Origin: Escherichia phage P1
Sequence record: NC_005856.1
DNA length: 64,000 nt
Reading direction: 5' to 3' (one strand)
Below the pieces are notes generated by a model. The model made no database searches. It was not told the origin of the DNA and worked only from the letters and a program-made list of their open reading frames with translations. The position numbers and the translations under genes were made by a program. Below are positions 2,666-64,000 of this stretch, in pieces (the first letter of the stretch is position 1; every line of letters starts with the position of its first letter).

Positions 2666-2696
2666 TTGACAACTGACAAGTGACTTCAGTCAGAAT
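2666..2696 (+). promoter_or_regulatory. Composite promoter upstream of mat: -35 TTGACA plus late-promoter -22 element and -10
   Basis: TTGACA at 2666-2671; GACAAGTGACT at 2675-2685 (10/11 to the AACAAGTGACT family), N5, CAGAAT at 2691-2696; P1 mat is reported to carry both early and late promoter elements (established knowledge, from memory). Confidence 0.5.
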
Positions 2697-6456: not shown

Positions 6457-7651
6457 GATTAGTTCCTTACCACTAAATCTAACTCAATAGATTTTTTGTT
6501 AGCATAACTTTTTAGCGCCTCATTAAGCTCCCTTTGTTTTGCACTTTCAAAGTTACAACCATAAAACACGACTTTGTTTGGGGCAAAATCTTCATCTGAA
6601 TCCAGCTTTTGGAGCAACGCTTTCAATGCTTCGCTAGTAAAATTAGGTGCAATCAAATACAGACGGCCATTGCAAAAGTGTGCTGTATAGCCACTAAGAT
6701 CAACATCTTCAATAGGTGTTGTTAACAAGCTACCATCATATACACACCATGTAGTCAATAGGGCATCATACTGTTCAGGCGTTAATACCGCATCATCAAA
6801 GAATGTATGATTAGTGAGCGTAAGTTCAGACTCAACTTTTGCTCTAAAGTCATCAATAGTATGAATCACTTTGAAACCTATTTTAGCCGCATTATCACTT
6901 GTGGTTGTGCTTTTTTTAAATACCTCCTGTATCCTTTTTTTTGTTATTTCAAAAATAGATCTATAGCCAAGAGAATAGGCATTCTTTGTTTTATTTATAA
7001 CTTCATCTTTTTGTATGCATATAAAATTCCTACAGCCTGAATCTTTTTCATTTAAATATGCAACAGCTTCTGCTGTCGTACCAGAGCCAGCAAAAAAGTC
7101 AAGAACTAATGAATCCTTTTTTGTTCCTATTTTTACAAGATCGGTTATAAGAGGAACAGGTTTTGGTCCTTCAAATAATTTTGCACCTAAAAGATTTTTA
7201 AGCTCAGTTGTCGCCGTGCTTGTACTATATTCAGGTTTATACCAAATTGATTTTGGCTTTTTAGTTGGTAGCTCTCCAAGAGCAGGCCGCTGTTTTTTAT
7301 AGATATTTTTACCATCTTTTATATCTATTACTATTAGATTATAAAACTCATCATTTATTTTTTTCTTTCCCCACGACCATGAAAGCTCTTCACCCGTAGG
7401 GCTTACTGGGTAAAGTACATAGTCATCTTCGTTAAGAGGTTTATCATCATCTGTTACATAAACCTTATTTTCTGAATTGATGAATACCGGAAACCAACCT
7501 TTTGGTCTTGATTTTCTAGAAGCATCTTGGCCAGTACGCTTTAATGTATCAGCTCTTTTAAATAGCCCATATTCATCTTCATCCCACTCTTTTTCAACTT
7601 CACTTTCATCAATATCGAATTGCCCCAAACTACAAACATCTTTGTTTTTAG

Positions 7652-8846
<1,195 letters not shown>

Positions 8847-9749
8847 TTAGCGTATACATATATATATTCATGCGTATCTGAAAAGCCAAAGTTATCATGA
8901 TTGCCTTTGAGATTCATGATTGTAGGGAGTTTTGCAACAAAATTACCTTGCCCAAATACTTCGTCGCATAATAATCCCAACTGTTTATCTTCGTTATCGT
9001 CTATGGAGATGAATATTACTCCATCCTCTTTTAAAAGTTCACGTGCAATATAAAGACGAGGATAAATGAATGTCAGCCATGCACTATGACTGCTTGAACC
9101 CTTGGTGGTAAATTCAAGTATGCGGTTAGCCTCATCAAGCTCGATACCTGCCAGTTCAGAAAGCTGTTCTGGTGTAAACTTGCGATCATCGTTATAGACG
9201 AATCCATCTTTACCCGTATTGTATGGTGGGTCAATGTAAATCATATTCACCTTTTCAGCATAAGCATTAACCATATGCTTCAATACTTCGAGGTTATCCC
9301 CTTTGATTAACAGGTTTTGACTGTTCTTGTTCTCTTCTTGTTGGTTATGTGTTTTATCTTCTGCCAACAACGTTTTCGGTGGTAGATTGGCCAACAAACG
9401 GGCATAAGATTTACCCAGCCAGTTTAAACTGTATGATTCTTTAGAGAGTTCAACCTCCGATGCTCTAATAATCTCAAGCAATTTTTCTTGAATGAAGGCT
9501 CCGTTTTTATCAAAACACTGTGGGAAATTAGCTTTCAACACAGCCAGTTGCTTGCTGTTAGCCGTTTCTACTTCGGAAAAAATCGTTTCTTTTTTCATAT
9601 CCATTTTAAACCAGATCATTTAGCAACAAAGCGCCGCCTCCCCAGCCCGTTAGAGCCAGAAGTTGTGGCACTATCACTATCTATATGTTTGAAGAATCGT
9701 GCTTCTTTGAGCGATGCTCGGTGAGCAAACAGCCATAATTTGGGGAAGT

Positions 9750-10468: not shown

Positions 10469-13400
10469 TTATGCGTATTGTTGGATGACGGCCAGAACGT
10501 CCGCCACGTTGTGTTTTGTCTCGATAATCCACCAGTTACCCGGGAAATCGCTGTTCTTCGCCTTCGCTGGCAGCCAGCGAGCGCCGAATTTCGTCTTGAT
10601 TGCGTCTTTCGCACGGAAAAGAACGCCTTTCATGCCTGAGGCTTCCTGAAGCCCAAATACCTCGCCAGCGGCGAATTTTGGTGCGTACATCATCTTCAGG
10701 TCGGCGGTGGATACGCGATAATTCAGACCAAGAGACTGAGCTATGCTGGTGGCATCACCCTGTATTGATGATAACTCTTCTTGTTTCTCGTTTCTGGCGG
10801 CAATTTCTTCCTCCGTGATGTTGCCAAGGGCCAGGTTTATCCGATCAGCGTCGGCCTGTTTCTCTTCATCGGTGCGCCCGGCAAGAACCGTGTTAATTCT
10901 CTGCAATATCTCCACATGATTCTTGCGCATGCTGAGCAATTCCGGCGTAACCTCGTTAAGATCCACCAGCCCAAGGATGGCAAGGTCGGAAAACATTGAT
11001 ACCAGGTTGTAGGTCATGCGATAGCTGAGTTGGCCATAGGCTGATGGCAACTGCACCGCATCCATTTTATAGGCATCCATAAATTTAGAGCCGTCGTTTA
11101 CGACATCCGCAATTGCCGGTGTGATTTTCCCTGTGGTGGCGGCCTCCCTGATTGCTGTTACCCACGATTGAGTCAGTGCGGCGACTGCATGATTCAGATT
11201 GGCTTCCCGTTCTGCTGCGATGCGCGCGCTTGCTGCGTCCATTGCCTGCTTGATCTCGGCTTTATTGCTGTAAATGCCAATGGTGCCAAACTGTGCTGTG
11301 GTGATCTCATAATCTGACGCCCGGAACTCATGGGTACCGAAAATGGCATTGGTGACCTCAAGTTCAGAATCCCCGTTACGAGTAGCCCCCTGGCTTGTTT
11401 TCTCCGGCATTCTGGCGATCGCATCCGCTATTTTCTCCTGAATTGCTTCAGGGGATAGCGTATCTCCATATGACGCGATTACATCGCCATAATTGGAGCC
11501 AAACAGTTCAGTCAGGAATACTTCTGCCAAACGGACCTGGCGGTTATTCCCTTCAGACATCATACCAAGCACCCATTTTGCAATTGACGACTTCAGCGCG
11601 CCGTCACGGCGATCCGGGTAAACCGCATGCTTCAGTGGGTCCGTATAGGTACCAACAAAATCAATGCTATAGCCTGACTCTGTAGTCTGAACGCCGTATG
11701 AGTCAGTGATTTTGATCATGCCGCGCTGCTGGAAACGGTAGAAATCGTCACAGGAAATGATGTCGTTAATCCCGGCGATGGAGACGCCACCACTGATTTT
11801 CTGCATAACAGCATCTTCATCGGGAGTTACATCCACCTGTTTATCCAGCGTCTTCACATCCCAGTTACCCGATTTGGTGCCTTTGAAGGTAAAGATGATC
11901 TCCACGTCTGCGCGCTGGCTGTCGAAGTCCAGCGACTTAATGCGAACGATATCACCGGCACAATCGTAGTATTGGCCTACACGCCATGAGCGATCGCCGA
12001 TAACAAGGAACTCACTCGCATGGTTAACCAGGTCAGGATCAACATCCAGAATGCCTTTATTTATTGCATCCTCCACCAGCGGGCGCAGGCGTTTGATATC
12101 CGTCGCGGCCTTCTGAGTACGGTTCAATAATTTCTCATAGGGGGAGATGGCCTGAGAGATATTAGCCTTGCGCTGAATGGCGCTTTTCAACGACGCGCGA
12201 TACTGTGCTAACAACATACGGTCTGTGTGATGGACGCTACCCCAGCGGGCTTTCCAGTCTGCGTTATCAGCTGCTTTGGCCATTACCGCCTGTTTGAATT
12301 TAGCTACCTCGGCGGTGGTCTTTTCAAGTTCCGCTTTGCTTCGCTCTAATTCAGCGGTAAGTACCTCCACATCCTCGCCAGCTGCGTGCTGCGCCTTGAT
12401 GTAGTTCTGAAGGTCGATAGTAGCCTGTTCTTTCTGGCGAGCGCGTTGCGCGGCTTTCGCCTTATCCATTTGAACCTGCATCATTGCCAGACGTTCGCCA
12501 TCATCCTTAGCGGTATACATCTGCATTTCGATCATATCGTTGGCGTCGGCGTTCTCCATTTCAGACTTATCTGAGCGGAGGATATCGGAGATCCAGCCTG
12601 CTTTACGCTTCAGCGTCTTCAGTCGGTATTCATCGAAAGAACCCTTGCCGCAGTAGTAGTGAACGCGAACGCTTGCACGGTTGGAACCAACTCGGGCACC
12701 GCGACCGTTACGCTGTGCGATACTGGCTGGTGTCCATGGCAACGTCAGATGATGGATGTCAGTCGTTCCTCGATGCAGGTTGATACCCACCTCTGCCTTT
12801 TTGTTGCAGATGATGATCGGAGTCCGGCCCTCCTGGAAGTCGGCAGCAATCTTTTCCAGCCCGCCCAGCGACATTTCATTTTGCTGCGCGATATAGGCGT
12901 CATACAGAGCCATTTGCTCGTTGTATTTCGCTATCTGTGCATCTGTTGGTTCATCCGGTAACTCTTTCGGCGGTTTAACCGCTTTCAGTTTCTTACCGGT
13001 TTTACCTGCCTCGGCAACCGTCTGAGCATTCAGGATCCCCACCTTTGAAGGTTCAAGGTTAAGAGCATTGCAGATAATGCGCTTGAGCTTCTGGTGCTGC
13101 GTTTTTTCATCGGTGAAGATGATTTGCTTACCTTCCGGGAAAAACTCCTTCAGCGTGGCGATCAGCTTCGCGTATTTTGGTGTAACGGGGTGAGTTACGG
13201 TCTGTTCGTCAATGCCAAACCTGGCCAGGCGCTTATTCACTTCCTGCTCGAACGCTTCCGGAACCTGCAACTGAATAAACTCGCCCTTATCTATCAGGGA
13301 GTATTGCGATTGCTGCGTGATTGAATCATCACTGTCGTCGTCTTCGCTGGTGGCTTGTTTAGGCAAACTGTCCGCCAGCTGCTGCACCGCATCGGCGTAC

Positions 13401-16400
13401 TCCGGCAGGAAACGATAGGTGATCCGGCGATAGTACAGGTCCATGTCAGTACATACGCGGTCCATATCCCTGATTATTGAGAAGATCGGACGGGCTTTCT
13501 CGTGCTCAATCACGCCGTCTTCATTGACCGAGGTCGTTACGCCATTGTTGGCTTTGGCTGCCGCTTCCGCCTGCTGACGCAATTCTTCATACGCCGCCAG
13601 TTGTTCTTCAGTAAGTGGCGCATCCTGCTGGTGTTCGTCCAGCTCCGGGATCTCCACGGTATCCTTAACGTCTTCCGCTGTTTTAAGCGTTGTCCAGCGA
13701 TGGAATATGCCGCGCAGCGCATCAAGGTTTTCAAAGCCCACCAGCGCCATTTTTTCTTCAACTTCACCGCTGATTTTCTGTACCGTTTCCAGCCTGGTCT
13801 TGCCGAAGAATTTAACGAAGTCATCAGGACCGTAGATCCCCATCTTCTGCCAGTATTCTTTCGGCAGAACATGAGAAAGCATGTTGTATGCATCGATCGG
13901 GGTGTTAACGACTGGCGTTGCAGTCAGGAGAACCGGTCCGCGCCCGCCATTCTTTTTCATCAGGTACGCGTTTTTGATTGCCATATCTCGCGCCGATTGC
14001 GCCACCGCGCTGGTGGGCAGATAGGCCAGCTGTGACGCTTCGCGACCATTTTTATAGCTATTGCGGTAGTTGTGGCCTTCGTCGGCGATCACGCTGTCGA
14101 AGCCCATATCCTCAAAGTACGGATACTTCTCTGCTTTTTCGGTACCGGTATCTGAATACTCCGACAATACCCGGCGACGCGCCGCCTCTTTGCGATGGGA
14201 ATCGGAATCCATTGCGCTGGCTACGCGCCCGGCGGCAACGAAGTCATAAAGCATATCCTGTGCATGCTCATCTACGGTGTCATCACGTAGCGGAATGCGG
14301 GCGTATTGTTCTTTGGTAAACACGACTGCACGGTAATTTGAGTGCGGGATCGCATTCATCCGCGCCGTGATAGTGGCTTCATCTGCCAGCTTAAGAGCAT
14401 CGCGCATAACTGGAGTGCCATCAGTACCAAGAACAGGTTTACCGTTCTCATCGAGCACCGGCACCTGGCGAATCTGATCGCCATCCATCAGCACATCAAG
14501 ACCGACGAACAGGTAGTTACTGAATGCCTCTTCACTCAGGAACTCTTTTGCTTCGTAATACCAGTTTTCCAGCACTGATTTAGGCACTACATAAGCAGTA
14601 CGGGTGGAGCGACCGTTCTCATAGTTGAACGCCTCAAGCGCCAGCGCGGTCGTGGTTTTACCCAGCCCGGTGCCGAAGCCCAGGATGCCGCGCCCATCTT
14701 CGGACAGTCGGCGCACCTCGCTATTCTGGTAATCAAATGGCTGGCGCTTACCGCTTAATCCCTTCAACCCAAGCGGATCGCCAGAGTGTTCATACGGGAT
14801 ATTGCTATTGAACACATCGTTGTATTTGGCAACCAGCTCATCGTAGCGATCGTGCGTCTTGATCCACTTATTGAACTGGTCCTCAAGCAGTGCCATCTGC
14901 TCGCGGTAGCCGTTCGCCGTCGCGCTATCTTTGCCACCGATACGCGCACCATTGAGATACTTTTCCAGCTGTGCCGGGAACCCGGTCGCGTTTTCACCTG
15001 ATTTACGGTCCCACTCGTAGCGGATCTCGCCTGTTTCTTTATCCTTGCGCTGGACGACACCGTATCGGTGCCCGACGAACAGACCATCACCACCGTGATA
15101 GGTGTCAGAAACCATTTCGTCGCCTTCCAGCTGCACTGACTGCACATAGCGCAGATCCGGATAGCCGTTTTCCTGCAAAAATTCCAGAATGACGGAACGG
15201 TCGAACCAACGGCTATTGAGCTTAAACCGGATATTCTCTGCTGGCGTCTTGATGCGCTTCTCTTCGATCGCTGCCAGCTGATTAAGGACGTTGTTCTTTA
15301 CTGGACCGTCGGTGAGCGTGGCGAGGAATTCCTGTTTTGGAGCCACTATCTCGTTAATGTCGCCGCTGGTGGCGCGGGCGAACGGAACAATCCCGCCATA
15401 CGGTGAAACCGCAATGCCAGGGGTGCTGGCCAATAAATTAAGCAACTCGTCATCACTGGCTGGCAGTTCGCCGGTAAACGCAAGGCGGAAATCATCGAGC
15501 TGGATTGGATCGCGAGTGAGATCACTGTAGAGATAACGCAGGGTGTCCTGATAGCTGGTGGAGTCATAACTGGCGCTGGAATCATGCGTAACCAGTTTTC
15601 CTGTCAGCTCGTCAGAAATAGTGCCATCCAGCTTAATTGCACCACGGAAAGCAAACCAGGCGCGCGCACCGCTTCCCGATAATTTAGCTATCGGACCGCG
15701 ACCGGGGTTACCAAAACGGTCAATCTCTGCCTGCAAACGGGATACCAGAGAAAGGCGCTGCTGTTCGATTTGTTCAGCACTATGCCCGGCGGCCTTCATA
15801 TCCTGATATTCAATTAACATCCGGCCAATCATCGCCCCGCGATACAAGCGTTCACGGTATTTTTCAGGCTGGCTGTTAATCCAGTCCACCAGCTGCACCA
15901 TATCGTCGCTGATTGATGTGGTGTACTTATCGCGGACATTTGCCATCTGGGTAAATGTCATACCGAGACGGCCTTCTGTTGTAGTCAGGTTACGCTGAAG
16001 AGCCTCCCAGCTGTCCGCGCCATAACTGGCAACATCAATCTTCAGCTCCTTCCCGGCATCAGATTCAATCCAGCGACCACCAGCATATTTTTGCCATACG
16101 CCATTAATCAGGCGCATTTCCCCTTCATCAACAACATCTGCGGTCGGTGACGGTTCAGCCATATCGAGCAAATACCAGTCGATACGGCTTTCGAAACAAT
16201 GAATCAGCTTCGCTTTAAGAGCCTGGTTATCAATCTGACCGTCGGCACGAACCTCAATACGCCCCTGGAAGCCCTTTTCCTGGGTGCCATGAACAAACCG
16301 GCGGCCGTCCTTTTCAAACCACTTGCCAGAAATAAACGTTGGCCAAAGCACATTTGCCGATTCGAGAGTGCTTTCATGCACCAGGGGGATTTTCTCAGCC

Positions 16401-17236
16401 ATCTCTGCCGGATGTTTGCGCATCAGCACCACATCAACGACTGTACTGGTCCCGTTTGCGTCAAAAGTACCGGTAGGCAAGCGGTGAGCGCCAAGAAATT
16501 CAGCTTTACGGGATAAGCGCAGGCGTAACCGCTTCATGTTTGAACCTGAAACAATGGACGGCGGCACAATCACACACATGAATCCGCCAGGTTTTATCTT
16601 GTCCAGCATGCGGAGCATGAAGTAAGACCCCATGTCCGTTTCTTCTGCGTAAGGCTTATCGATGTTGCGTGTGTTATCACGACCGCCGAACGGAACGTTA
16701 CCCACAACATGGTCGAATGAATCGTTAGGCGTGCTTACAGCCAGTTGTTCGAACGGGGAAATCTGTACGCTGTCTTCCGGATGTAACAGCTGGTTTATAC
16801 GACCGGAAACACTGCTGATCTCAGTCGCGGTCATCACCGTACCAACCGGTTTTGTCTCATTAAAAACGCCGGTGCCCGCCGATGGTTCCAGAGTGTTACC
16901 TACGTCCGCGCCGTAGAGCTTCATGATCTCCCAGACACCTTCAGCGATCGGCTTTGGTGTGTAATATTCGGAGACGGACCCGCCAATGCCGCCTTCACCG
17001 GTGTACCCAGCCAGGATCTGGCGCTGTTCATCTGTCAGTGTCGCGCCGTCCACCAGCGAATTAAGCAAATCTATCGCCTTCTGATTCGCCTCCCGGCGCA
17101 GTCGGTCATAGCTTTTGCCTTCCACCTTTTCCACGCCGTATTTAATCGGCGCTCGGTGAGATGTTATTGCCCTAATGTATTTCAATATTTCGCTGACACT
17201 TGAACAGCGAAACACCCCCATAGATAGCTTGTTCAT
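10469..17236 (-). CDS. darB: DarB antirestriction protein, 2255 aa (N6-adenine methyltransferase-like N-terminal domain fused to DExH helicase)
   Basis: Giant ORF; N-terminal region has MTase-like motifs (GNVPFGG, SAGTGVF); central region has helicase motifs (GFGTGLGKTT Walker A, VIADEGHNYRN DExH box); size matches P1 DarB. Confidence 0.9.
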   Translation of the reverse strand: MNKLSMGVFRCSSVSEILKYIRAITSHRAPIKYGVEKVEGKSYDRLRREANQKAIDLLNSLVDGATLTDEQRQILAGYTGEGGIGGSVSEYYTPKPIAEGVWEIMKLYGADVGNTLEPSAGTGVFNETKPVGTVMTATEISSVSGRINQLLHPEDSVQISPFEQLAVSTPNDSFDHVVGNVPFGGRDNTRNIDKPYAEETDMGSYFMLRMLDKIKPGGFMCVIVPPSIVSGSNMKRLRLRLSRKAEFLGAHRLPTGTFDANGTSTVVDVVLMRKHPAEMAEKIPLVHESTLESANVLWPTFISGKWFEKDGRRFVHGTQEKGFQGRIEVRADGQIDNQALKAKLIHCFESRIDWYLLDMAEPSPTADVVDEGEMRLINGVWQKYAGGRWIESDAGKELKIDVASYGADSWEALQRNLTTTEGRLGMTFTQMANVRDKYTTSISDDMVQLVDWINSQPEKYRERLYRGAMIGRMLIEYQDMKAAGHSAEQIEQQRLSLVSRLQAEIDRFGNPGRGPIAKLSGSGARAWFAFRGAIKLDGTISDELTGKLVTHDSSASYDSTSYQDTLRYLYSDLTRDPIQLDDFRLAFTGELPASDDELLNLLASTPGIAVSPYGGIVPFARATSGDINEIVAPKQEFLATLTDGPVKNNVLNQLAAIEEKRIKTPAENIRFKLNSRWFDRSVILEFLQENGYPDLRYVQSVQLEGDEMVSDTYHGGDGLFVGHRYGVVQRKDKETGEIRYEWDRKSGENATGFPAQLEKYLNGARIGGKDSATANGYREQMALLEDQFNKWIKTHDRYDELVAKYNDVFNSNIPYEHSGDPLGLKGLSGKRQPFDYQNSEVRRLSEDGRGILGFGTGLGKTTTALALEAFNYENGRSTRTAYVVPKSVLENWYYEAKEFLSEEAFSNYLFVGLDVLMDGDQIRQVPVLDENGKPVLGTDGTPVMRDALKLADEATITARMNAIPHSNYRAVVFTKEQYARIPLRDDTVDEHAQDMLYDFVAAGRVASAMDSDSHRKEAARRRVLSEYSDTGTEKAEKYPYFEDMGFDSVIADEGHNYRNSYKNGREASQLAYLPTSAVAQSARDMAIKNAYLMKKNGGRGPVLLTATPVVNTPIDAYNMLSHVLPKEYWQKMGIYGPDDFVKFFGKTRLETVQKISGEVEEKMALVGFENLDALRGIFHRWTTLKTAEDVKDTVEIPELDEHQQDAPLTEEQLAAYEELRQQAEAAAKANNGVTTSVNEDGVIEHEKARPIFSIIRDMDRVCTDMDLYYRRITYRFLPEYADAVQQLADSLPKQATSEDDDSDDSITQQSQYSLIDKGEFIQLQVPEAFEQEVNKRLARFGIDEQTVTHPVTPKYAKLIATLKEFFPEGKQIIFTDEKTQHQKLKRIICNALNLEPSKVGILNAQTVAEAGKTGKKLKAVKPPKELPDEPTDAQIAKYNEQMALYDAYIAQQNEMSLGGLEKIAADFQEGRTPIIICNKKAEVGINLHRGTTDIHHLTLPWTPASIAQRNGRGARVGSNRASVRVHYYCGKGSFDEYRLKTLKRKAGWISDILRSDKSEMENADANDMIEMQMYTAKDDGERLAMMQVQMDKAKAAQRARQKEQATIDLQNYIKAQHAAGEDVEVLTAELERSKAELEKTTAEVAKFKQAVMAKAADNADWKARWGSVHHTDRMLLAQYRASLKSAIQRKANISQAISPYEKLLNRTQKAATDIKRLRPLVEDAINKGILDVDPDLVNHASEFLVIGDRSWRVGQYYDCAGDIVRIKSLDFDSQRADVEIIFTFKGTKSGNWDVKTLDKQVDVTPDEDAVMQKISGGVSIAGINDIISCDDFYRFQQRGMIKITDSYGVQTTESGYSIDFVGTYTDPLKHAVYPDRRDGALKSSIAKWVLGMMSEGNNRQVRLAEVFLTELFGSNYGDVIASYGDTLSPEAIQEKIADAIARMPEKTSQGATRNGDSELEVTNAIFGTHEFRASDYEITTAQFGTIGIYSNKAEIKQAMDAASARIAAEREANLNHAVAALTQSWVTAIREAATTGKITPAIADVVNDGSKFMDAYKMDAVQLPSAYGQLSYRMTYNLVSMFSDLAILGLVDLNEVTPELLSMRKNHVEILQRINTVLAGRTDEEKQADADRINLALGNITEEEIAARNEKQEELSSIQGDATSIAQSLGLNYRVSTADLKMMYAPKFAAGEVFGLQEASGMKGVLFRAKDAIKTKFGARWLPAKAKNSDFPGNWWIIETKHNVADVLAVIQQYA

Positions 17237-17247
17237 TGGTAATCCTT

Positions 17248-17269
17248 AACAAGTGACTAGTGTTAAATT
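17248..17269 (+). promoter_or_regulatory. Late promoter upstream of prt: AACAAGTGACT (-22 element) N5 TAAATT (-10)
   Basis: Motif shared with sites upstream of pmgC, gene 23, mat and lyz; P1 late promoters are reported to have conserved -22 and -10 elements and depend on the Lpa activator (established knowledge). Confidence 0.55.
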
Positions 17270-17302
17270 CCGTTCAAACACGATGTGAATTATTCTAATT
17301 AA

Positions 17303-20033
<2,731 letters not shown>

Positions 20034-20968: not shown

Positions 20969-20990
20969 AGGATAATGCAAATCACTTGTT
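20969..20990 (-). promoter_or_regulatory. Late-promoter-like element upstream of lyz (AACAAGTGATT N5 TATCCT on the minus strand)
   Basis: 10/11 match to the -22 element; weaker -10; about 90 bp upstream of the lyz start. Confidence 0.35.
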
Positions 20991-24552: not shown

Positions 24553-27529
24553 TATTTAGCTCCTTTGCCACACCTAATAACAGTTCCAGCAATCCGTCAC
24601 CATTCATCAGTGATGCGGCAGCGGCCTCTTTGTCATGATACAACTGAAGAGCCATAGAGAATACTTCCGTTGCTGACGTTTTGGAAATAGTCGGAGATTT
24701 CTGCCGAATTTTCCCGGTGTTACTTACTGAGGCTGGCGGGTATACCTTCGCCATATAAATATTACTCAATCGAGATCTGAAGCACCATTCAGGCTTGCCA
24801 CGCCCACCGATATTGACGAAAGATGGCTTATCCCCTTCAACATTGGCCTTCAGGAATGACCGGGCTTTCTCTAACAAACCAGGGTTACTGTACTCAAGAT
24901 GATGACCCAGCTCGTGCCACAGTGCACTTGCATTTTCATCGTTCAAATTGACAGCAACAACACCATTAAGATTTGCATATGCCCTTCCCTGGTGGTGAAC
25001 TACCTTTGATAAGGTCGATATTTTCCCGCCGGTCAGGCGATAAATATCAGCAAGTTCCTTGCGCAGGTCTATCCCACCATTCTGTCCAGCGCGGACTTCT
25101 TCCACTTCTTCTGTGATAAAAGAGTCGGCCCACTCAAGAGCTTTTTCTTCAGATACGTATGAGTTTGCGATCGCACTGTTCATGGCAGATAACACTTTCT
25201 CGTGGACCGAACCCATACTTCGCTGATTCATTTGCCAGCGTGTCTGCGGGTTATATGAGAATCGCTTAAGTAGTTGGTCAAGCTGCTCAAGTTCTTCTTC
25301 ACTGACATACTTTTTAGCCTCACCAATAATGCCAGGGAGAATATTGCCGTTAGGATTAAACGCTCGCGAAAGGAAGAGTTTCAGTACCCCCATGCCCTCC
25401 GATGCTTCAATATCACCAATAACCCGGTTAACAATGGCCGCACTCTTCGGATTAGCATCCGCCAACGCTCTGGCTACGATTTGCAGGGACGATACGACCT
25501 CACGCTGCATATCAGTCCTGATCTCATCAATAAACTCTGGCGTTATACCGTGCTCTTTAAGGATATCCCGGCCTTCCGCCGTTACCCCATCGATATCACC
25601 GACATGTTTATTAACACGACTTTGCAATGCCTTAAATGCCTTCAGAATTCCACGGGCATCATCCGCTTTACTAACGGCCTTCCTGAATGCTGTCAAGAAG
25701 TCTGAGTTAACCTCATTTTGTTGATCGGCCCACTGAATGGAGGCATCTTTCATCTCGTCCAGAGTCAGATCACCCAACGCGGTATGGTCTGTGAATATGA
25801 GCGACAACCTCTGAACCATTTCTGCCAATGATGATGCCGAATGCGCCGCGCTAAGGAATGCTTTCACCCTGGTTGGGCGAATGGAAAACCAGTCAATAGC
25901 TGGTGGCATATCTCCGTTTTTTATCGCCTGCGCTATCTCGTCAAAGCCATCGCGCCCAAGGGAGGATGCGTGATTTAACAAGCCGCGAAGTAACGAATTG
26001 CTGATACCGAATAATCGGCACCATTTTTTCACGTCGGCAACAGGCATTCGAACAAAATGCGCAAGCACTTGTACAAGCTGTTCATCATGGGGATCTGTAC
26101 GGGAAAGCAGCCTGATCAGATGAATAATGTCTTTGATGCCGGATGCCCGATGTAATAGCAAACTGGTATATGGAGCAACACCGTTGTAACTACCGCCGGA
26201 AACGGACTCGAAAAGACCGCCGGATATCCCTTGCATGCCTTCGTTTTCCAGTTCCTGAGACACCTGGCGAAGGATATCCTGTAACGACACATCGCCGCCG
26301 CCAAACATATCCCCCAGCGCCTGGCCCTGGTGCTGTAACTCATCATTGATACGTTGAGCCATCAACTTAAAGGCGGTGGCCATACGCTTCGCGCTACGGT
26401 TATTCGCGACGATGAACAACGCGAGTGCTTTCACTTCCGGGGCCGTTTCGCTGAACATATCCCCCTGAGCAATAACATCGGTAATATGCTGGCCTGACTC
26501 CTTCGATTGCCTTACCAGGTCTACCGCATCTTTCAATGCCGCCAGCGCCTTTTTATCGAGGCTATCCGCTGTCTCAATGCCATCAACAATAGTTGTCACA
26601 GCCTGCTTGTGCGCTTCTCCTGATAAAGCCTGCATCTGGACAAAATCATTGGCTGCCGCATTAAGCGCCGTCAGAACATTACGCATATCCGGATCAGGTT
26701 CTTCTGCAACCATCCTTACCAGGCGCGCATCCTTATATGCCTTGGCAAAGATCGCGTTTTGTATACGGTCTACAAGTTGCCGTGTTGGTCGCCCATCTTC
26801 AGTTACAAGGCCAGCCGCCTGTGTGGCACCAACTTGCGTCATAAATCCGCGAATAAACGCGTCATTACTGCGGCTAAGCAGATCTCCGCTTTCTGACGGG
26901 TTAAAAAGCGCCATCATCGCCGGTGTTATGCTGTCGGCATCAACAAAAGCCTTTTCACTGGCTGCCATTTCCTGAAGATCAGAAATATTTGAGTCCTTGG
27001 CAAACTGAACGCGGTCAACCTTAGTTAACCGGCGGCGCACCAGTACCGGAGCCGTCATTGATTCAACCTTTTCAGGAGGTATGCCGAATTCGGTCGCATG
27101 ATCAATCAGGTACTCACGATACCGATCCGCATTGCCGTCCTGATAGGCTTTGATGATCCCCATGGTCCGTCCATTACCTGACTCAACGGCATTGTCCTCA
27201 CCAATTATCGGCGCGCCATGGCTGGATAAACCGGAATCGGTAAGCTGGGCAGGACGCAAATCCTTGGATATCTGGTTGACCTGAAGAAGACTGGATGCGC
27301 GGGTCCGGTCGCGCGGCTGAAGTTCCTGGGGATAGTCAGGGTTAATTTTCCCGTCCAGAGTATTGGATACCAAAAGAGCCGAGGCATCGACGATATCAAA
27401 CGCTGTTTTTACCTCGTCACCCTTCGCTGTCACCACATACGAAACCCGCCCGAAATCGGGCAGGTTCTTTAGCAGCTCGATCAGCGTTTCTATGCTGGTG
27501 GCCATTACCACCTGATCGCTTAAGCTCAT
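24542..27529 (-). CDS. ddrB: DdrB, large dar-operon protein (995 aa)
   Basis: Large ORF downstream of ddrA/darA in the same operon; name by P1 map position and size. Confidence 0.65.
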   Translation of the reverse strand: MSLSDQVVMATSIETLIELLKNLPDFGRVSYVVTAKGDEVKTAFDIVDASALLVSNTLDGKINPDYPQELQPRDRTRASSLLQVNQISKDLRPAQLTDSGLSSHGAPIIGEDNAVESGNGRTMGIIKAYQDGNADRYREYLIDHATEFGIPPEKVESMTAPVLVRRRLTKVDRVQFAKDSNISDLQEMAASEKAFVDADSITPAMMALFNPSESGDLLSRSNDAFIRGFMTQVGATQAAGLVTEDGRPTRQLVDRIQNAIFAKAYKDARLVRMVAEEPDPDMRNVLTALNAAANDFVQMQALSGEAHKQAVTTIVDGIETADSLDKKALAALKDAVDLVRQSKESGQHITDVIAQGDMFSETAPEVKALALFIVANNRSAKRMATAFKLMAQRINDELQHQGQALGDMFGGGDVSLQDILRQVSQELENEGMQGISGGLFESVSGGSYNGVAPYTSLLLHRASGIKDIIHLIRLLSRTDPHDEQLVQVLAHFVRMPVADVKKWCRLFGISNSLLRGLLNHASSLGRDGFDEIAQAIKNGDMPPAIDWFSIRPTRVKAFLSAAHSASSLAEMVQRLSLIFTDHTALGDLTLDEMKDASIQWADQQNEVNSDFLTAFRKAVSKADDARGILKAFKALQSRVNKHVGDIDGVTAEGRDILKEHGITPEFIDEIRTDMQREVVSSLQIVARALADANPKSAAIVNRVIGDIEASEGMGVLKLFLSRAFNPNGNILPGIIGEAKKYVSEEELEQLDQLLKRFSYNPQTRWQMNQRSMGSVHEKVLSAMNSAIANSYVSEEKALEWADSFITEEVEEVRAGQNGGIDLRKELADIYRLTGGKISTLSKVVHHQGRAYANLNGVVAVNLNDENASALWHELGHHLEYSNPGLLEKARSFLKANVEGDKPSFVNIGGRGKPEWCFRSRLSNIYMAKVYPPASVSNTGKIRQKSPTISKTSATEVFSMALQLYHDKEAAAASLMNGDGLLELLLGVAKELNNAD

Positions 27530-30857: not shown

Positions 30858-31183
30858 TTCCCGCCTCCCTTTTTCACCAAACTTGTAAGAACATTCAGAA
30901 TGCTATCGATATTCACTCGTTTCATCCCTGAAATCACCTCATGACCGTTATTGCTGGCTATCGTTACCATTAAGTACGTAATTGATAACTCCCAGCCCTC
31001 GTGTTGCCCCAATAGGTACGCCACCGCGCCAGCTGTCACTGCAACAAAGATCTCCGTAACCAATCCCAACAAATTGCCAGACTGGCGACCGTCTCGGACA
31101 TCCATCAGGAACGTGCCTATCCCACCAATTACTGAAAGCAGGAGCGCAATAGCAACTGGAGCTAATTCCTGTGTGTCAAGCAC
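30854..31183 (-). CDS. lydA: LydA holin (109 aa)
   Basis: Protein has hydrophobic helices (LAPVAIALLLSVIGGIGTFL, EIFVAVTAGAVAYLL, LSITYLMVTIA) and a charged C-terminus, typical of holins. Confidence 0.7.
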   Translation of the reverse strand: MLDTQELAPVAIALLLSVIGGIGTFLMDVRDGRQSGNLLGLVTEIFVAVTAGAVAYLLGQHEGWELSITYLMVTIASNNGHEVISGMKRVNIDSILNVLTSLVKKGGGK

Positions 31184-31250
31184 AAGTTCCCTCCTACGTT
31201 GTCAGGAGGTAATGGTATGCAAAGTAACTTCTCAACCGGTCATTTGTTGC

Positions 31251-31532
31251 TTAAGAGGCATTTCTATTGAGGTACGAATCAATAATCCTTTGTAACTTTT
31301 CAAGAATGAGCCTGTTATTGATGCTGCAAATAATAGTCACGCAATTCTGAAGACTTTCATCCATACCCTTATATTCCGCGAAATACATGCCTATAAAGCC
31401 TGCAAGTACGGCAGCAATACACTCGGCCATCAATTGCCTGCATGACGCTTCGTAACGTTTTTCACAAACCCCATTCAGAAACGAATGCACCCCGCCAAGG
31501 ATGGAGAGGAGCATTATTGTGAAATCACACAT
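31251..31532 (-). CDS. lydC: Holin-like small membrane protein (93 aa), position of P1 lydC
   Basis: Hydrophobic segments (FTIMLLSILGGV, ECIAAVLAGFIGMYF); directly upstream of lydA. Confidence 0.5.
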   Translation of the reverse strand: MCDFTIMLLSILGGVHSFLNGVCEKRYEASCRQLMAECIAAVLAGFIGMYFAEYKGMDESLQNCVTIICSINNRLILEKLQRIIDSYLNRNAS

Positions 31533-31659
31533 AACTATTTCCTTAATAGTGAATTAAATATCATTGGGAAACGGTATGTACTTTGTGATTTCCACACATA
31601 CTGGTTTTTGTTAATTAAAATCCGCAGCTTGCTATAAATAACGATAGTGAGCAGAAAAT

Positions 31660-63942: not shown

Positions 63943-64000
63943 GTCTTCCTCCTGAAGAAAAATTATCAATGAAGTCCTTTGTTACTGTGCCGCTTTGTTT

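What the first reader, a model, noticed from the sequence alone, without database searches (positions are those of the whole stretch)
17248..17269. Shared late-promoter architecture (AACAAGTGACT-N5-TAAAAT) recoverable at five or more operon starts
The same -22 element followed 5 bp later by a -10 hexamer occurs upstream of prt (17248-17269, plus), the pmgC-sit tail operon (46608-46629, minus), the gene 23 operon (58825-58846, minus), mat (2675-2696, plus, combined with a TTGACA -35) and more weakly lyz (20969-20990, minus). A possible extra copy (AACAAATGACC, 31238-31248, minus) lies between lydC and lydA with a poor -10. This agrees with reports that P1 late promoters have conserved -22 and -10 elements, and it delimits the late transcription units.
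Basis: partly seen in the sequence, partly recalled or inferred. Interest (0 to 1): 0.4.

Follow-up and report, generated by a model that had tools for sequence, protein, structure and literature searches.

The report
Known phage P1 late promoters, rediscovered
The repeated motif is real, but it is the long-known set of "late" promoters of bacteriophage P1, switched on by the phage protein Lpa and already annotated in GenBank, so the finding is correct and ordinary.

Summary
The window is bacteriophage P1, nt 1-64000. It is 100% identical to AF234173.1 over the stretch searched and keeps that record's coordinates, apart from the IS5 position and 10 SNPs.

Five of them (mat, prt, lyz, pmgC-sit, gene 23) are the GenBank-annotated late promoters LPmat, LPpro, LPlyz, LPsit and LP23. 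Each has a 9-bp inverted repeat AAGTNACTT ("-22 box"), a 4-bp spacer and a -10 hexamer TANNNT. None has a -35 except the dual Pmat.

The enrichment is far beyond chance:
- The 22-nt pattern gives 5 hits against 0.24 expected.
- At PWM >= 18 bits there are 8 hits against 0.025 expected.
- All annotated sites lie in the 6.8% of the window that is intergenic, 19-86 nt before a lysis or morphogenesis gene.

Three other lines agree: a matrix built only from Cronobacter phage JK004 ranks the same seven sites first; the sites are conserved at matching positions in three lineages; and in published RNA-seq the downstream genes are late (median log2 30/10 min 6.8 vs 4.2, p = 6e-14).

Two corrections. 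Its "extra copy" (31238-31248) is a non-conserved look-alike; the real lydA/dar promoter LPdar is 31212-31233.

Side finds: a conserved, unannotated weak candidate before ppfA, and a D6-type variant element before lydC.

The parts
2675..2696 (+). LPmat: late promoter of mat (GAC AAGTGACTT cagt CAGAAT). It shares its -10 with the sigma-70 promoter Pmat.
   Evidence: Annotated as 'late promoter LPmat' 2678-2696. 19 nt to the mat start codon. Conserved in JK004 and the S. arizonae plasmid. mat log2(30/10 min) = 6.6.
2666..2671 (+). TTGACA -35 hexamer of the predicted sigma-70 promoter Pmat, 19 bp upstream of the shared -10.
   Evidence: Annotated minus_35_signal Pmat.
17248..17269 (+). LPpro: late promoter of the prt-pro (portal / head-processing) operon (AAC AAGTGACTA gtgt TAAATT). 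This is the site the finding is anchored on.
   Evidence: Annotated LPpro 17251-17269. No -35-like hexamer. The 22-mer has no substitution in 80 P1-like viral contigs while the flanks vary. Orthologous sites in JK004 and CP053320. prt and pro log2(30/10) = 6.5 and 6.3.
20969..20990 (-). LPlyz: late promoter of lyz-lydD-lydE (AAC AAGTGATTT gcat TATCCT).
   Evidence: Annotated LPlyz 20969-20987. PWM 24 bits; leave-one-out 16.7. Orthologous sites about 94 nt before lyz in JK004 and CP053320.
31212..31233 (-). LPdar: late promoter of the lydA-lydB-hdf-darA-ddrA-ddrB operon (GAG AAGTTACTT tgca TACCAT).
   Evidence: Annotated LPdar 31212-31230. Invariant in 80 P1-like loci, directly at a mosaic breakpoint. 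Weaker orthologues AAAGCACTT-N4-TAACAT in JK004 and CP053320 at the same distance.
38318..38339 (-). LPs (Ps): late promoter of the tail-fibre operon R-S-U (GAC AAGTTACTT atct TACAAT).
   Evidence: 3 mismatches. Annotated LPs 38318-38336 with -22 and -10 boxes 'previously identified'. PWM 27 bits. R, S and U log2(30/10) = 7.4, 7.8 and 6.5.
46608..46629 (-). LPsit: late promoter of pmgC-tub-pmgB-sit-pmgA-bplA-16 (AAC AAATGACTA ctcg TAGAAT).
   Evidence: Annotated LPsit 46608-46626. 31 nt to the pmgC start. Orthologues 30 nt before pmgC in JK004 and CP053320. Unit mean log2(30/10) = 7.8.
58825..58846 (-). LP23: late promoter of the 23-22-21-pmgG-bplB-pmgF (capsid/sheath) operon (AAC AAGTGACTT tcaa TAAAAT).
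   Evidence: 0 mismatches. Annotated 'predicted late promoter LP23' 58825-58843. Top PWM hit with both the P1-derived and the JK004-derived matrices. Orthologues 50 nt before gene 23.
63962..63983 (-). Candidate, unannotated weak late-type promoter before ppfA-mlp-upfA (AAC AAAGGACTT catt GATAAT). Tentative.
   Evidence: PWM 11-12 bits, not significant on its own. Box and hexamer positions are conserved 18-19 nt before ppfA in P1, E. albertii, JK004 and two Salmonella plasmids, while the spacers differ. Unit log2(30/10) = 6.0. Caveats: the first 3 nt overlap the upfB stop codon, and the upstream genes upfB and upfC are also late.

Best explanation
These are the Lpa-dependent late promoters of bacteriophage P1. 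The window holds seven of the genome's eleven annotated ones: LPmat, LPpro, LPlyz, LPdar, LPs, LPsit and LP23.

Each is a host sigma-70 -10 hexamer (TANNNT) with no usable -35. In place of the -35, a 9-bp inverted repeat AAGTNACTT sits 4 bp upstream of the hexamer, centred near -22.

Early in infection the promoters are nearly silent. Once the C1-controlled gene lpa (gene 10, outside the window at about 89.7 kb) is expressed, Lpa binds the box. Together with the RNAP-associated host protein SspA it lets E. coli sigma-70 RNA polymerase start about 7-8 nt downstream of the hexamer. This turns on the lysis, head, tail, tail-fibre and packaging operons.

Shown here: the sites, their statistics, their position before late operons, their conservation, and the late kinetics of the downstream genes.
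Taken from the literature: Lpa binding, the SspA requirement and use of sigma-70.
Inferred: Lpa binds the palindrome as a dimer through a winged-helix domain.
For: Identity and annotation:
- The window is 100% identical to P1 record AF234173.1 over 16000-19000, and the record annotates late promoters at these coordinates.

Statistics:
- 5 hits against 0.24 expected for the 22-nt pattern.
- PWM >= 18 bits: 8 hits against 0.025 per shuffle. Leave-one-out scores for the nine canonical P1 sites are 14.6-25.4 bits.
- A matrix built only from Cronobacter phage JK004 ranks the same seven window sites 1-7.

Position:
- All seven lie in the 6.8% intergenic fraction, on the strand of a downstream lysis or morphogenesis gene and 19-86 nt from it.
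- No -35-like hexamer except at LPmat.

Conservation:
- The LPpro 22-mer has zero substitutions in 80 viral contigs while its flanks vary.
- LPdar is invariant at a mosaic breakpoint.
- Across P1, JK004 and Salmonella plasmid CP053320, motif columns are 81% invariant against 35% for the spacers and flanks.

Expression:
- In Table S1 of PMC8201110, genes behind the nine canonical sites have median log2(30/10 min) 6.8 against 4.2 for the others. Mann-Whitney p = 6e-14 genome-wide and 3e-8 within the window.

Mechanism:
- PMC10695390, PMC3152322, PMC1891329, PMC8198154 and PMC8201110.
- Lpa belongs to Pfam PF25716. Its AlphaFold model has a confident helix-helix-helix-hairpin core, and the nearest folds are all winged-helix DNA binders.
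Against: - No transcription start sites, Lpa dependence or SspA dependence were measured here, and the primary papers could not be read.
- The three-lineage footprint has ascertainment bias, because the orthologous sites were found with the P1 matrix.
- The RNA-seq is a two-time-point fold-change. Some genes with no motif site upstream are equally late (darB, simABC, upfB/C, dbn), so late kinetics are not exclusive to motif-driven units.
- The fold-search E-values for Lpa are weak (>= 0.02).
Confidence: 0.95

Rival explanations
1. The matches are chance occurrences, or ordinary constitutive sigma-70 promoters whose upstream similarity means nothing.
For: The 11-mer alone is only modestly enriched (29 against 16.7). 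Single 22-bit scores do turn up in shuffles on rare occasions (maximum 23.6 in 200).
Against: There are eight hits at >= 18 bits against 0.025 expected. All the annotated sites are intergenic and correctly oriented. They lack -35 hexamers. An independent matrix from JK004 finds the same sites. The downstream genes are late, not constitutive.
Confidence: 0.01
2. The shared 22-mer is a recombination or module-junction sequence of mosaic P1-like genomes (a linker repeat) and not a transcription signal.
For: LPdar sits exactly at a breakpoint. Upstream of it, P1-like genomes carry at least five unrelated sequences.
Against: The other sites are not at breakpoints. The fixed 4-bp spacing to a TANNNT hexamer and the 19-86 nt distance to start codons are promoter features. 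Kinetics and the literature on Lpa binding explain the motif fully. A promoter at a module boundary is expected in mosaic phages anyway.
Confidence: 0.02
3. The box is an operator for a repressor that keeps these promoters off early, not an activator site.
For: A palindrome overlapping the core promoter between -26 and -17 is where repressors often bind. The sequence alone cannot tell the two apart.
Against: The promoters lack a -35, so they should be intrinsically weak and need activation. The P1 repressor C1 has separately annotated 17-bp operators with a different sequence. The literature reports Lpa as a trans-activator essential for late expression, with SspA as co-activator, and lpa is essential in a CRISPRi screen.
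Confidence: 0.02

Closest known systems
Bacteriophage P1 Lpa/SspA-dependent late promoters (LPmat, LPpro, LPlyz, LPdar, LPs, LPsit, LP23; from memory: Lehnherr et al. 1991/1992, Hansen et al. 2003, Lobocka et al. 2004)
   Same: The sequences, coordinates and architecture are identical: a 9-bp inverted repeat at -22, a 4-bp spacer and a -10 hexamer. They are the very features annotated in AF234173.1.
   Different: Nothing of substance. It thereby captures a conserved RAC (AC in 8 of 9 canonical P1 sites and 8 of 8 JK004 sites) that lies outside the annotated 9-bp box.
Late promoters of P1-like phage D6 (Lpa homologue 31% identical, same Pfam family PF25716)
   Same: A -10 hexamer plus an upstream box with no -35, placed before the orthologous late operons (prt, R, pmgB, 23, 7, 26, mat, ddrB, lydA). 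The box core AAATCAC fits the P1 core AARTNAC.
   Different: The D6 box is AAATCACA. It lacks the second half-site and the RAC prefix, and it sits 7 nt (not 4) from the hexamer, so the core is 2 bp further upstream. The P1 matrix finds only one strong site in D6. I could not check whether this is already published.
Phage T4 middle promoters (MotA box at -30 plus AsiA; from general knowledge)
   Same: A sigma-70 -10 element is kept and the -35 is replaced by a phage-activator box. A second small protein bound to RNAP is required.
   Different: Different proteins and box (MotA/AsiA against Lpa/SspA). The T4 co-factor is phage-encoded and remodels sigma region 4, whereas in P1 the co-activator SspA is a host protein. 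The P1 box lies closer to the -10.
Francisella MglA-SspA-PigR virulence activation (PMC1891329)
   Same: An RNAP-bound SspA-family protein is proposed as the docking surface for a DNA-bound activator. P1 Lpa/SspA is cited there as the precedent.
   Different: Bacterial virulence genes, different activators, different DNA sites.

Membership tests
P1 Lpa-dependent late promoter | Sigma-70-type -10 hexamer (TANNNT; A at position 2, T at position 6) | tested here: met
   All seven window sites have A2 and T6. Six begin with T; LPmat has CAGAAT. They match TATAAT at 4-5 of 6 positions.
P1 Lpa-dependent late promoter | 9-bp inverted repeat AAGTNACTT, 4 bp upstream of the hexamer (centre near -22) | tested here: met
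   The seven sites carry AAGTGACTT, AAGTGACTA, AAGTGATTT, AAGTTACTT (twice), AAATGACTA and AAGTGACTT, each with a 4-bp spacer. This matches the '-22 region' features in GenBank.
P1 Lpa-dependent late promoter | No functional -35 hexamer | tested here: met
   The best TTGACA match at 15-19 bp spacing is 1-3 of 6 for six sites. Only LPmat has TTGACA, which is the annotated dual promoter Pmat.
P1 Lpa-dependent late promoter | Located at the start of a lysis, morphogenesis or packaging operon, on the same strand | tested here: met
   The sites lie 19-86 nt upstream of mat, prt, lyz, lydA, R, pmgC and gene 23, all within the 6.8% intergenic fraction.
P1 Lpa-dependent late promoter | Late kinetics of the downstream genes | tested here: met
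   Re-analysis of published RNA-seq gives a median log2(30/10 min) of 6.6 for 29 window genes behind the sites against 4.5 for 28 others, p = 3e-8.
P1 Lpa-dependent late promoter | Transcription depends on Lpa (gp10) and host SspA; Lpa binds the box | not testable with these tools
   Literature only: PMC10695390, PMC3152322 and PMC1891329. lpa lies outside the window at 89672-90124 of AF234173.1.
P1 Lpa-dependent late promoter | Mapped transcription start about 7-8 nt downstream of the hexamer | not tested
   The primary mapping papers are not held, and no TSS data set was found.
   The hexamer would be AGAAGT. PWM -1.1 bits overall and -6.9 for the -10 part. The sequence is absent or replaced in many of the 80 P1-like loci.
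P1 Lpa-dependent late promoter (candidate before ppfA, 63962-63983) | Box plus hexamer at canonical spacing, conserved, late unit | tested here: inconclusive
   AAAGGACTT-N4-GATAAT scores 11-12 bits, which is below the range reached by chance. Even so, the motif positions are conserved in five lineages at 18-19 nt from ppfA, and the unit is late (6.0). The upstream genes are late too.

The most novel reading that the evidence does not exclude
The P1 late regulon may be slightly larger and more varied than the 11 annotated promoters suggest.

(i) There may be a weak, unannotated Lpa-type promoter (AAC AAAGGACTT-N4-GATAAT, 63962-63983 minus) before ppfA-mlp-upfA. It is conserved in P1, E. albertii, Cronobacter and Salmonella relatives.

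(ii) There may be a second architectural class in which the core AARTNAC lies 2 bp further from the -10 (AAATCACA-N7-hexamer). This class is the standard late promoter of phage D6, whose Lpa is only 31% identical. It also survives upstream of lydC in P1 (31571-31591 minus) and in 61 of 80 P1-like contigs examined. That would imply either flexible spacing in Lpa-dependent activation or exchange of promoter modules between Lpa specificity groups.
Probability: 0.3. Interest if true: 0.3.

Novelty: already known. Interest (0 to 1): 0.1.

Why it matters
For the scan, this is a positive control. A tool-less reader recovered a genuine regulon motif from raw sequence, with 5 of the 7 sites in the window correct.

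Biologically it adds nothing new for P1. The promoters, their activator Lpa and the co-activator SspA have been known since the 1990s and 2000s and are annotated in GenBank.

Some open ground remains:
- I found no solved structure of Lpa and no structural paper on the Lpa-SspA-RNAP complex.
- The conserved AC prefix of the box may matter for recognition.
- The 2-bp-shifted D6-type box would make a convenient natural specificity pair for dissecting how a winged-helix activator replaces -35 recognition.
- The ppfA candidate would add a membrane/lysis-related operon to the late regulon.

Tried and rejected
- Primary papers: I tried to read Lobocka et al. 2004 (PMC523184), Lehnherr et al. 1991 (PMC208978) and Gilcrease & Casjens 2018 (DOI and PMC5800970). 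None is held, so mapped start sites and any published D6 promoter consensus could not be checked.
- TSS data: a literature search for P1 transcription start data returned nothing usable.
- Lpa relatives in genomes: a genome-contig scan with Lpa returned only three loci with 91-100% identical matches.
- Low divergence in viral contigs: scans with Prt and LydA returned 80 loci each, all >= 98% identical in protein. Those footprints therefore have limited depth. Divergent lineages had to be taken from the phage and plasmid collections instead (JK004, D6, CP053320).
It has no -10 and is not conserved.
- PWM candidate 30900-30921 (-): this site inside lydA, 42 nt before lydB, scores 15-18 bits. I rejected it because the motif is not kept in JK004 or the Salmonella plasmid and its score falls within the range reached by shuffles.
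- The palindromic LPpro box as a divergent promoter for darB: rejected. The implied hexamer AGGATT ends 4 nt from the darB start codon.
- Two annotated late promoters outside the window fit the matrix poorly. LPpmgL scores -11 bits in leave-one-out and LPhot has a 9-bp spacer. Their genes are not late in the RNA-seq.

Full report
**What the window is.** A megablast of window 16000-19000 gives a 100% match to Escherichia phage P1 record AF234173.1 at the same coordinates. The whole window equals nt 1-64000 of that record except for the position of the IS5 insertion in mod (window about 7647-8850) and 10 single-base differences. Gene coordinates also match those used for NC_005856 in a published expression table. 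The window is therefore probably the other sequenced P1 strain. None of the differences touches the sites discussed here.

**The observation.**
- The full 22-nt pattern with up to 3 mismatches has 5 matches against 0.24 expected; 0 of 100 shuffles reach 5.
- The 11-mer alone is barely enriched, 29 against 16.7. The signal is the box plus a -10 hexamer at fixed spacing.

**What is annotated.** AF234173.1 carries explicit 'late promoter' features, each with a '-22 region' and a -10 signal.
- In the window: LPmat 2678-2696 (+), LPpro 17251-17269 (+), LPlyz 20969-20987 (-), LPdar 31212-31230 (-), LPs 38318-38336 (-), LPsit 46608-46626 (-) and LP23 58825-58843 (-).
- Beyond the window: LP26, LPpmgL, LPhot and LPpac, plus lpa itself at 89672-90124.
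- The TTGACA it noted at mat is the annotated -35 of Pmat, which shares the -10.
- The canonical description is a 9-bp inverted repeat AAGTNACTT, a 4-bp spacer and TANNNT.
- Those 3 nt are a real feature. AC precedes the box in 8 of 9 canonical P1 sites and in all 8 orthologous JK004 sites.

**Statistics and position.**
- A PWM built from the nine canonical P1 sites gives 8 window hits at >= 18 bits against 0.025 per dinucleotide shuffle. Leave-one-out scores are 14.6-25.4 bits.
- A matrix built only from sites in Cronobacter phage JK004 ranks the seven annotated window sites 1 to 7.
- All seven sit in the 6.8% of the window that is intergenic. Each is on the strand of, and 19-86 nt upstream of, mat, prt, lyz, lydA, R, pmgC or gene 23.
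- Apart from LPmat, none has a -35-like hexamer.

**Conservation.**
- In 80 P1-like viral contigs the LPpro 22-mer has no substitution, only a T-run length change just after the hexamer, while 20-odd flanking columns vary.
- In 80 lydA loci the sequence upstream of LPdar is replaced by at least five unrelated sequences. Homology resumes about 10 nt before the box, and LPdar itself is invariant.
It is changed or absent in the others, including the commonest, and it scores -1.1 bits as a promoter. It is a look-alike. The promoter in that gap is LPdar.
- Two diverged lineages carry motif sites at the same distances before the orthologues of mat, prt, lyz, lydA, R, pmgC, 23 and pacA. These are JK004 (Lpa 67% identical) and Salmonella arizonae plasmid CP053320 (Lpa 73% identical).
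- Across the three lineages, motif columns are invariant in 81% of cases against 35% for spacer and flank columns. This comparison is biased, because the orthologous sites were found with the P1 matrix.

**Expression.** Table S1 of PMC8201110 gives log2 fold-changes at 10 and 30 min after P1vir infection.
- The 37 genes in units behind the nine canonical sites have a median log2(30/10 min) of 6.8, against 4.2 for 62 other genes (p = 6e-14).
- Within the window the values are 6.6 against 4.5 (p = 3e-8).
- The two annotated late promoters that fit the matrix poorly, LPpmgL and LPhot, head units that are not late (4.0 and 3.4).
- Some genes with no motif site upstream are late as well: darB, simABC, upfB/C and dbn.

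**Mechanism.** The literature I could read gives the following.
- Lpa binds a sequence centred at -22 and needs the host co-activator SspA (PMC3152322).
- SspA is thought to bridge RNAP and DNA-bound Lpa, and it does not bind late-promoter DNA itself (PMC1891329).
- Late genes depend on Lpa (PMC8198154 and PMC8201110).

My own additions are these.
- Lpa belongs to Pfam PF25716 and has no relative in the PDB.
- An AlphaFold model (pLDDT above 90 for residues about 20-90) shows three helices plus a beta-hairpin. Its nearest folds are all winged-helix DNA binders (Fur/PerR, MarR, PadR, BlaI), at weak E-values of 0.02 and above.
- A winged-helix dimer on a 9-bp palindrome is therefore an inference, not a result.

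**Beyond the finding.**
1. *Candidate before ppfA.* A weak site lies 19 nt before ppfA: 63962-63983 (-), AAC AAAGGACTT catt GATAAT.
   - It scores only 11-12 bits.
   - In P1, E. albertii, JK004 and two Salmonella plasmids the box and hexamer positions are kept at 18-19 nt from ppfA, while the spacers differ.
   - The ppfA-mlp-upfA unit is late (6.0).
   - It is not annotated as a late promoter.
2. *Phage D6.* D6 has an Lpa of the same Pfam family but only 31% identical, and it does not use the P1 box.
   - Its late operons carry AAATCACA-N7-hexamer: 9 regex matches against about 1 expected, all before late genes.
   - The core AAATCAC fits the P1 core AARTNAC but lies 2 bp further from the -10.
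3. *The lydC element.* P1 has exactly one such D6-type element, at 31571-31591 (-), 38 nt before lydC.
   - It is the best-conserved block between the P1 and D6 cin-proximal spacers.
   - It is present in 61 of 80 P1-like contigs.
   - It also overlaps the predicted cin promoters, so its function is open.

**Verdict.** Novelty: already known. Interest is low. The corrections (LPs missed, LPdar misplaced) and the side observations are the only additions.

Noticed in passing
window 63962-63983 (-): Unannotated weak late-promoter-like site, AAC AAAGGACTT catt GATAAT, 19 nt before ppfA. The motif positions are conserved in five lineages at the same distance, and ppfA-mlp-upfA shows late kinetics. 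The first 3 nt overlap the upfB stop codon.
   Followed up: partly
window 31571-31591 (-): GGAAATCACAAAGTACATACCGT is the only P1 match to the D6-type late-promoter pattern AAATCACA-N7-hexamer. It lies 38 nt before lydC, in the cin-lydC spacer. It is the best-conserved island when that spacer is aligned with D6's, and it is present in 61 of 80 P1-like contigs. It overlaps the predicted cin promoters P2cin and P1cin.
   Followed up: partly
L006/L007 (phage D6, MF356679.1), e.g. 25221-25241 (-), 38115-38135 (-), 54124-54144 (-): D6 late operons (prt, R, pmgB, 23, 7, 26, mat, ddrB, orf16, lydA) carry AAATCACA-N7-(T/C/G)ANNNT in place of the P1 box. The core is the same (AARTNAC) but sits 2 bp further from the -10. 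D6 Lpa is 31% identical to P1 Lpa and belongs to the same Pfam family. D6 also has one lone P1-type site at 71093-71114 (+).
   Followed up: partly
window 31234-31300 (-), upstream of LPdar: This is a mosaic breakpoint. Among 80 P1-like lydA loci the sequence upstream of about 31240 falls into at least five unrelated variants, and identity resumes about 10 nt before the LPdar box.
   Followed up: partly
AF234173.1 76461-76482 (-), L003 12461-12482; outside the window: A strong unannotated P1-type match, AACAAGTGACTGGTGATAACCT (21-22 bits, like LPdar), lies inside the 5' end of gene 7. Related sequences occur at the same place in JK004 and CP053320, but a conserved peptide (Q-V/M-T-G-D) confounds the comparison.
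   Followed up: partly
AF234173.1 89549-89570 (-), L003 25549-25570, and CP053320 21728-21756; outside the window: A late-box-like palindrome (GACGAATGACTTGTGATAACGC in P1, GACGAGTGACTTGTGATAGCAC in the Salmonella plasmid) lies just upstream of Plpa/Olpa and points away from lpa. It could be an Lpa autoregulation site or an antisense promoter.
   Followed up: no
window 10469-17236 (-) darB; 46786-48070 (-) simCBA: In published RNA-seq, darB and simABC show late-type kinetics (log2 30/10 min of 5.8-6.8) although no late promoter is annotated or detected directly upstream of them. How they are transcribed late is unclear.
   Followed up: no
window 6503-8850: The window differs from AF234173.1 in where IS5 interrupts mod (about 7647-8850 here, 6503-7697 in the record), plus 10 SNPs at 19820, 34936-35267, 41857 and 54155-54352. 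It is probably the other sequenced P1 strain, NC_005856.
   Followed up: partly
AF234173.1 78176-78194 (+) LPpmgL and 86202-86225 (+) LPhot; outside the window: Two of the 11 annotated late promoters fit the motif poorly: LPpmgL scores -11 bits in leave-one-out, and LPhot has a 9-bp spacer. Their genes are not late in RNA-seq (log2 30/10 of 4.0 and 3.4).
   Followed up: partly
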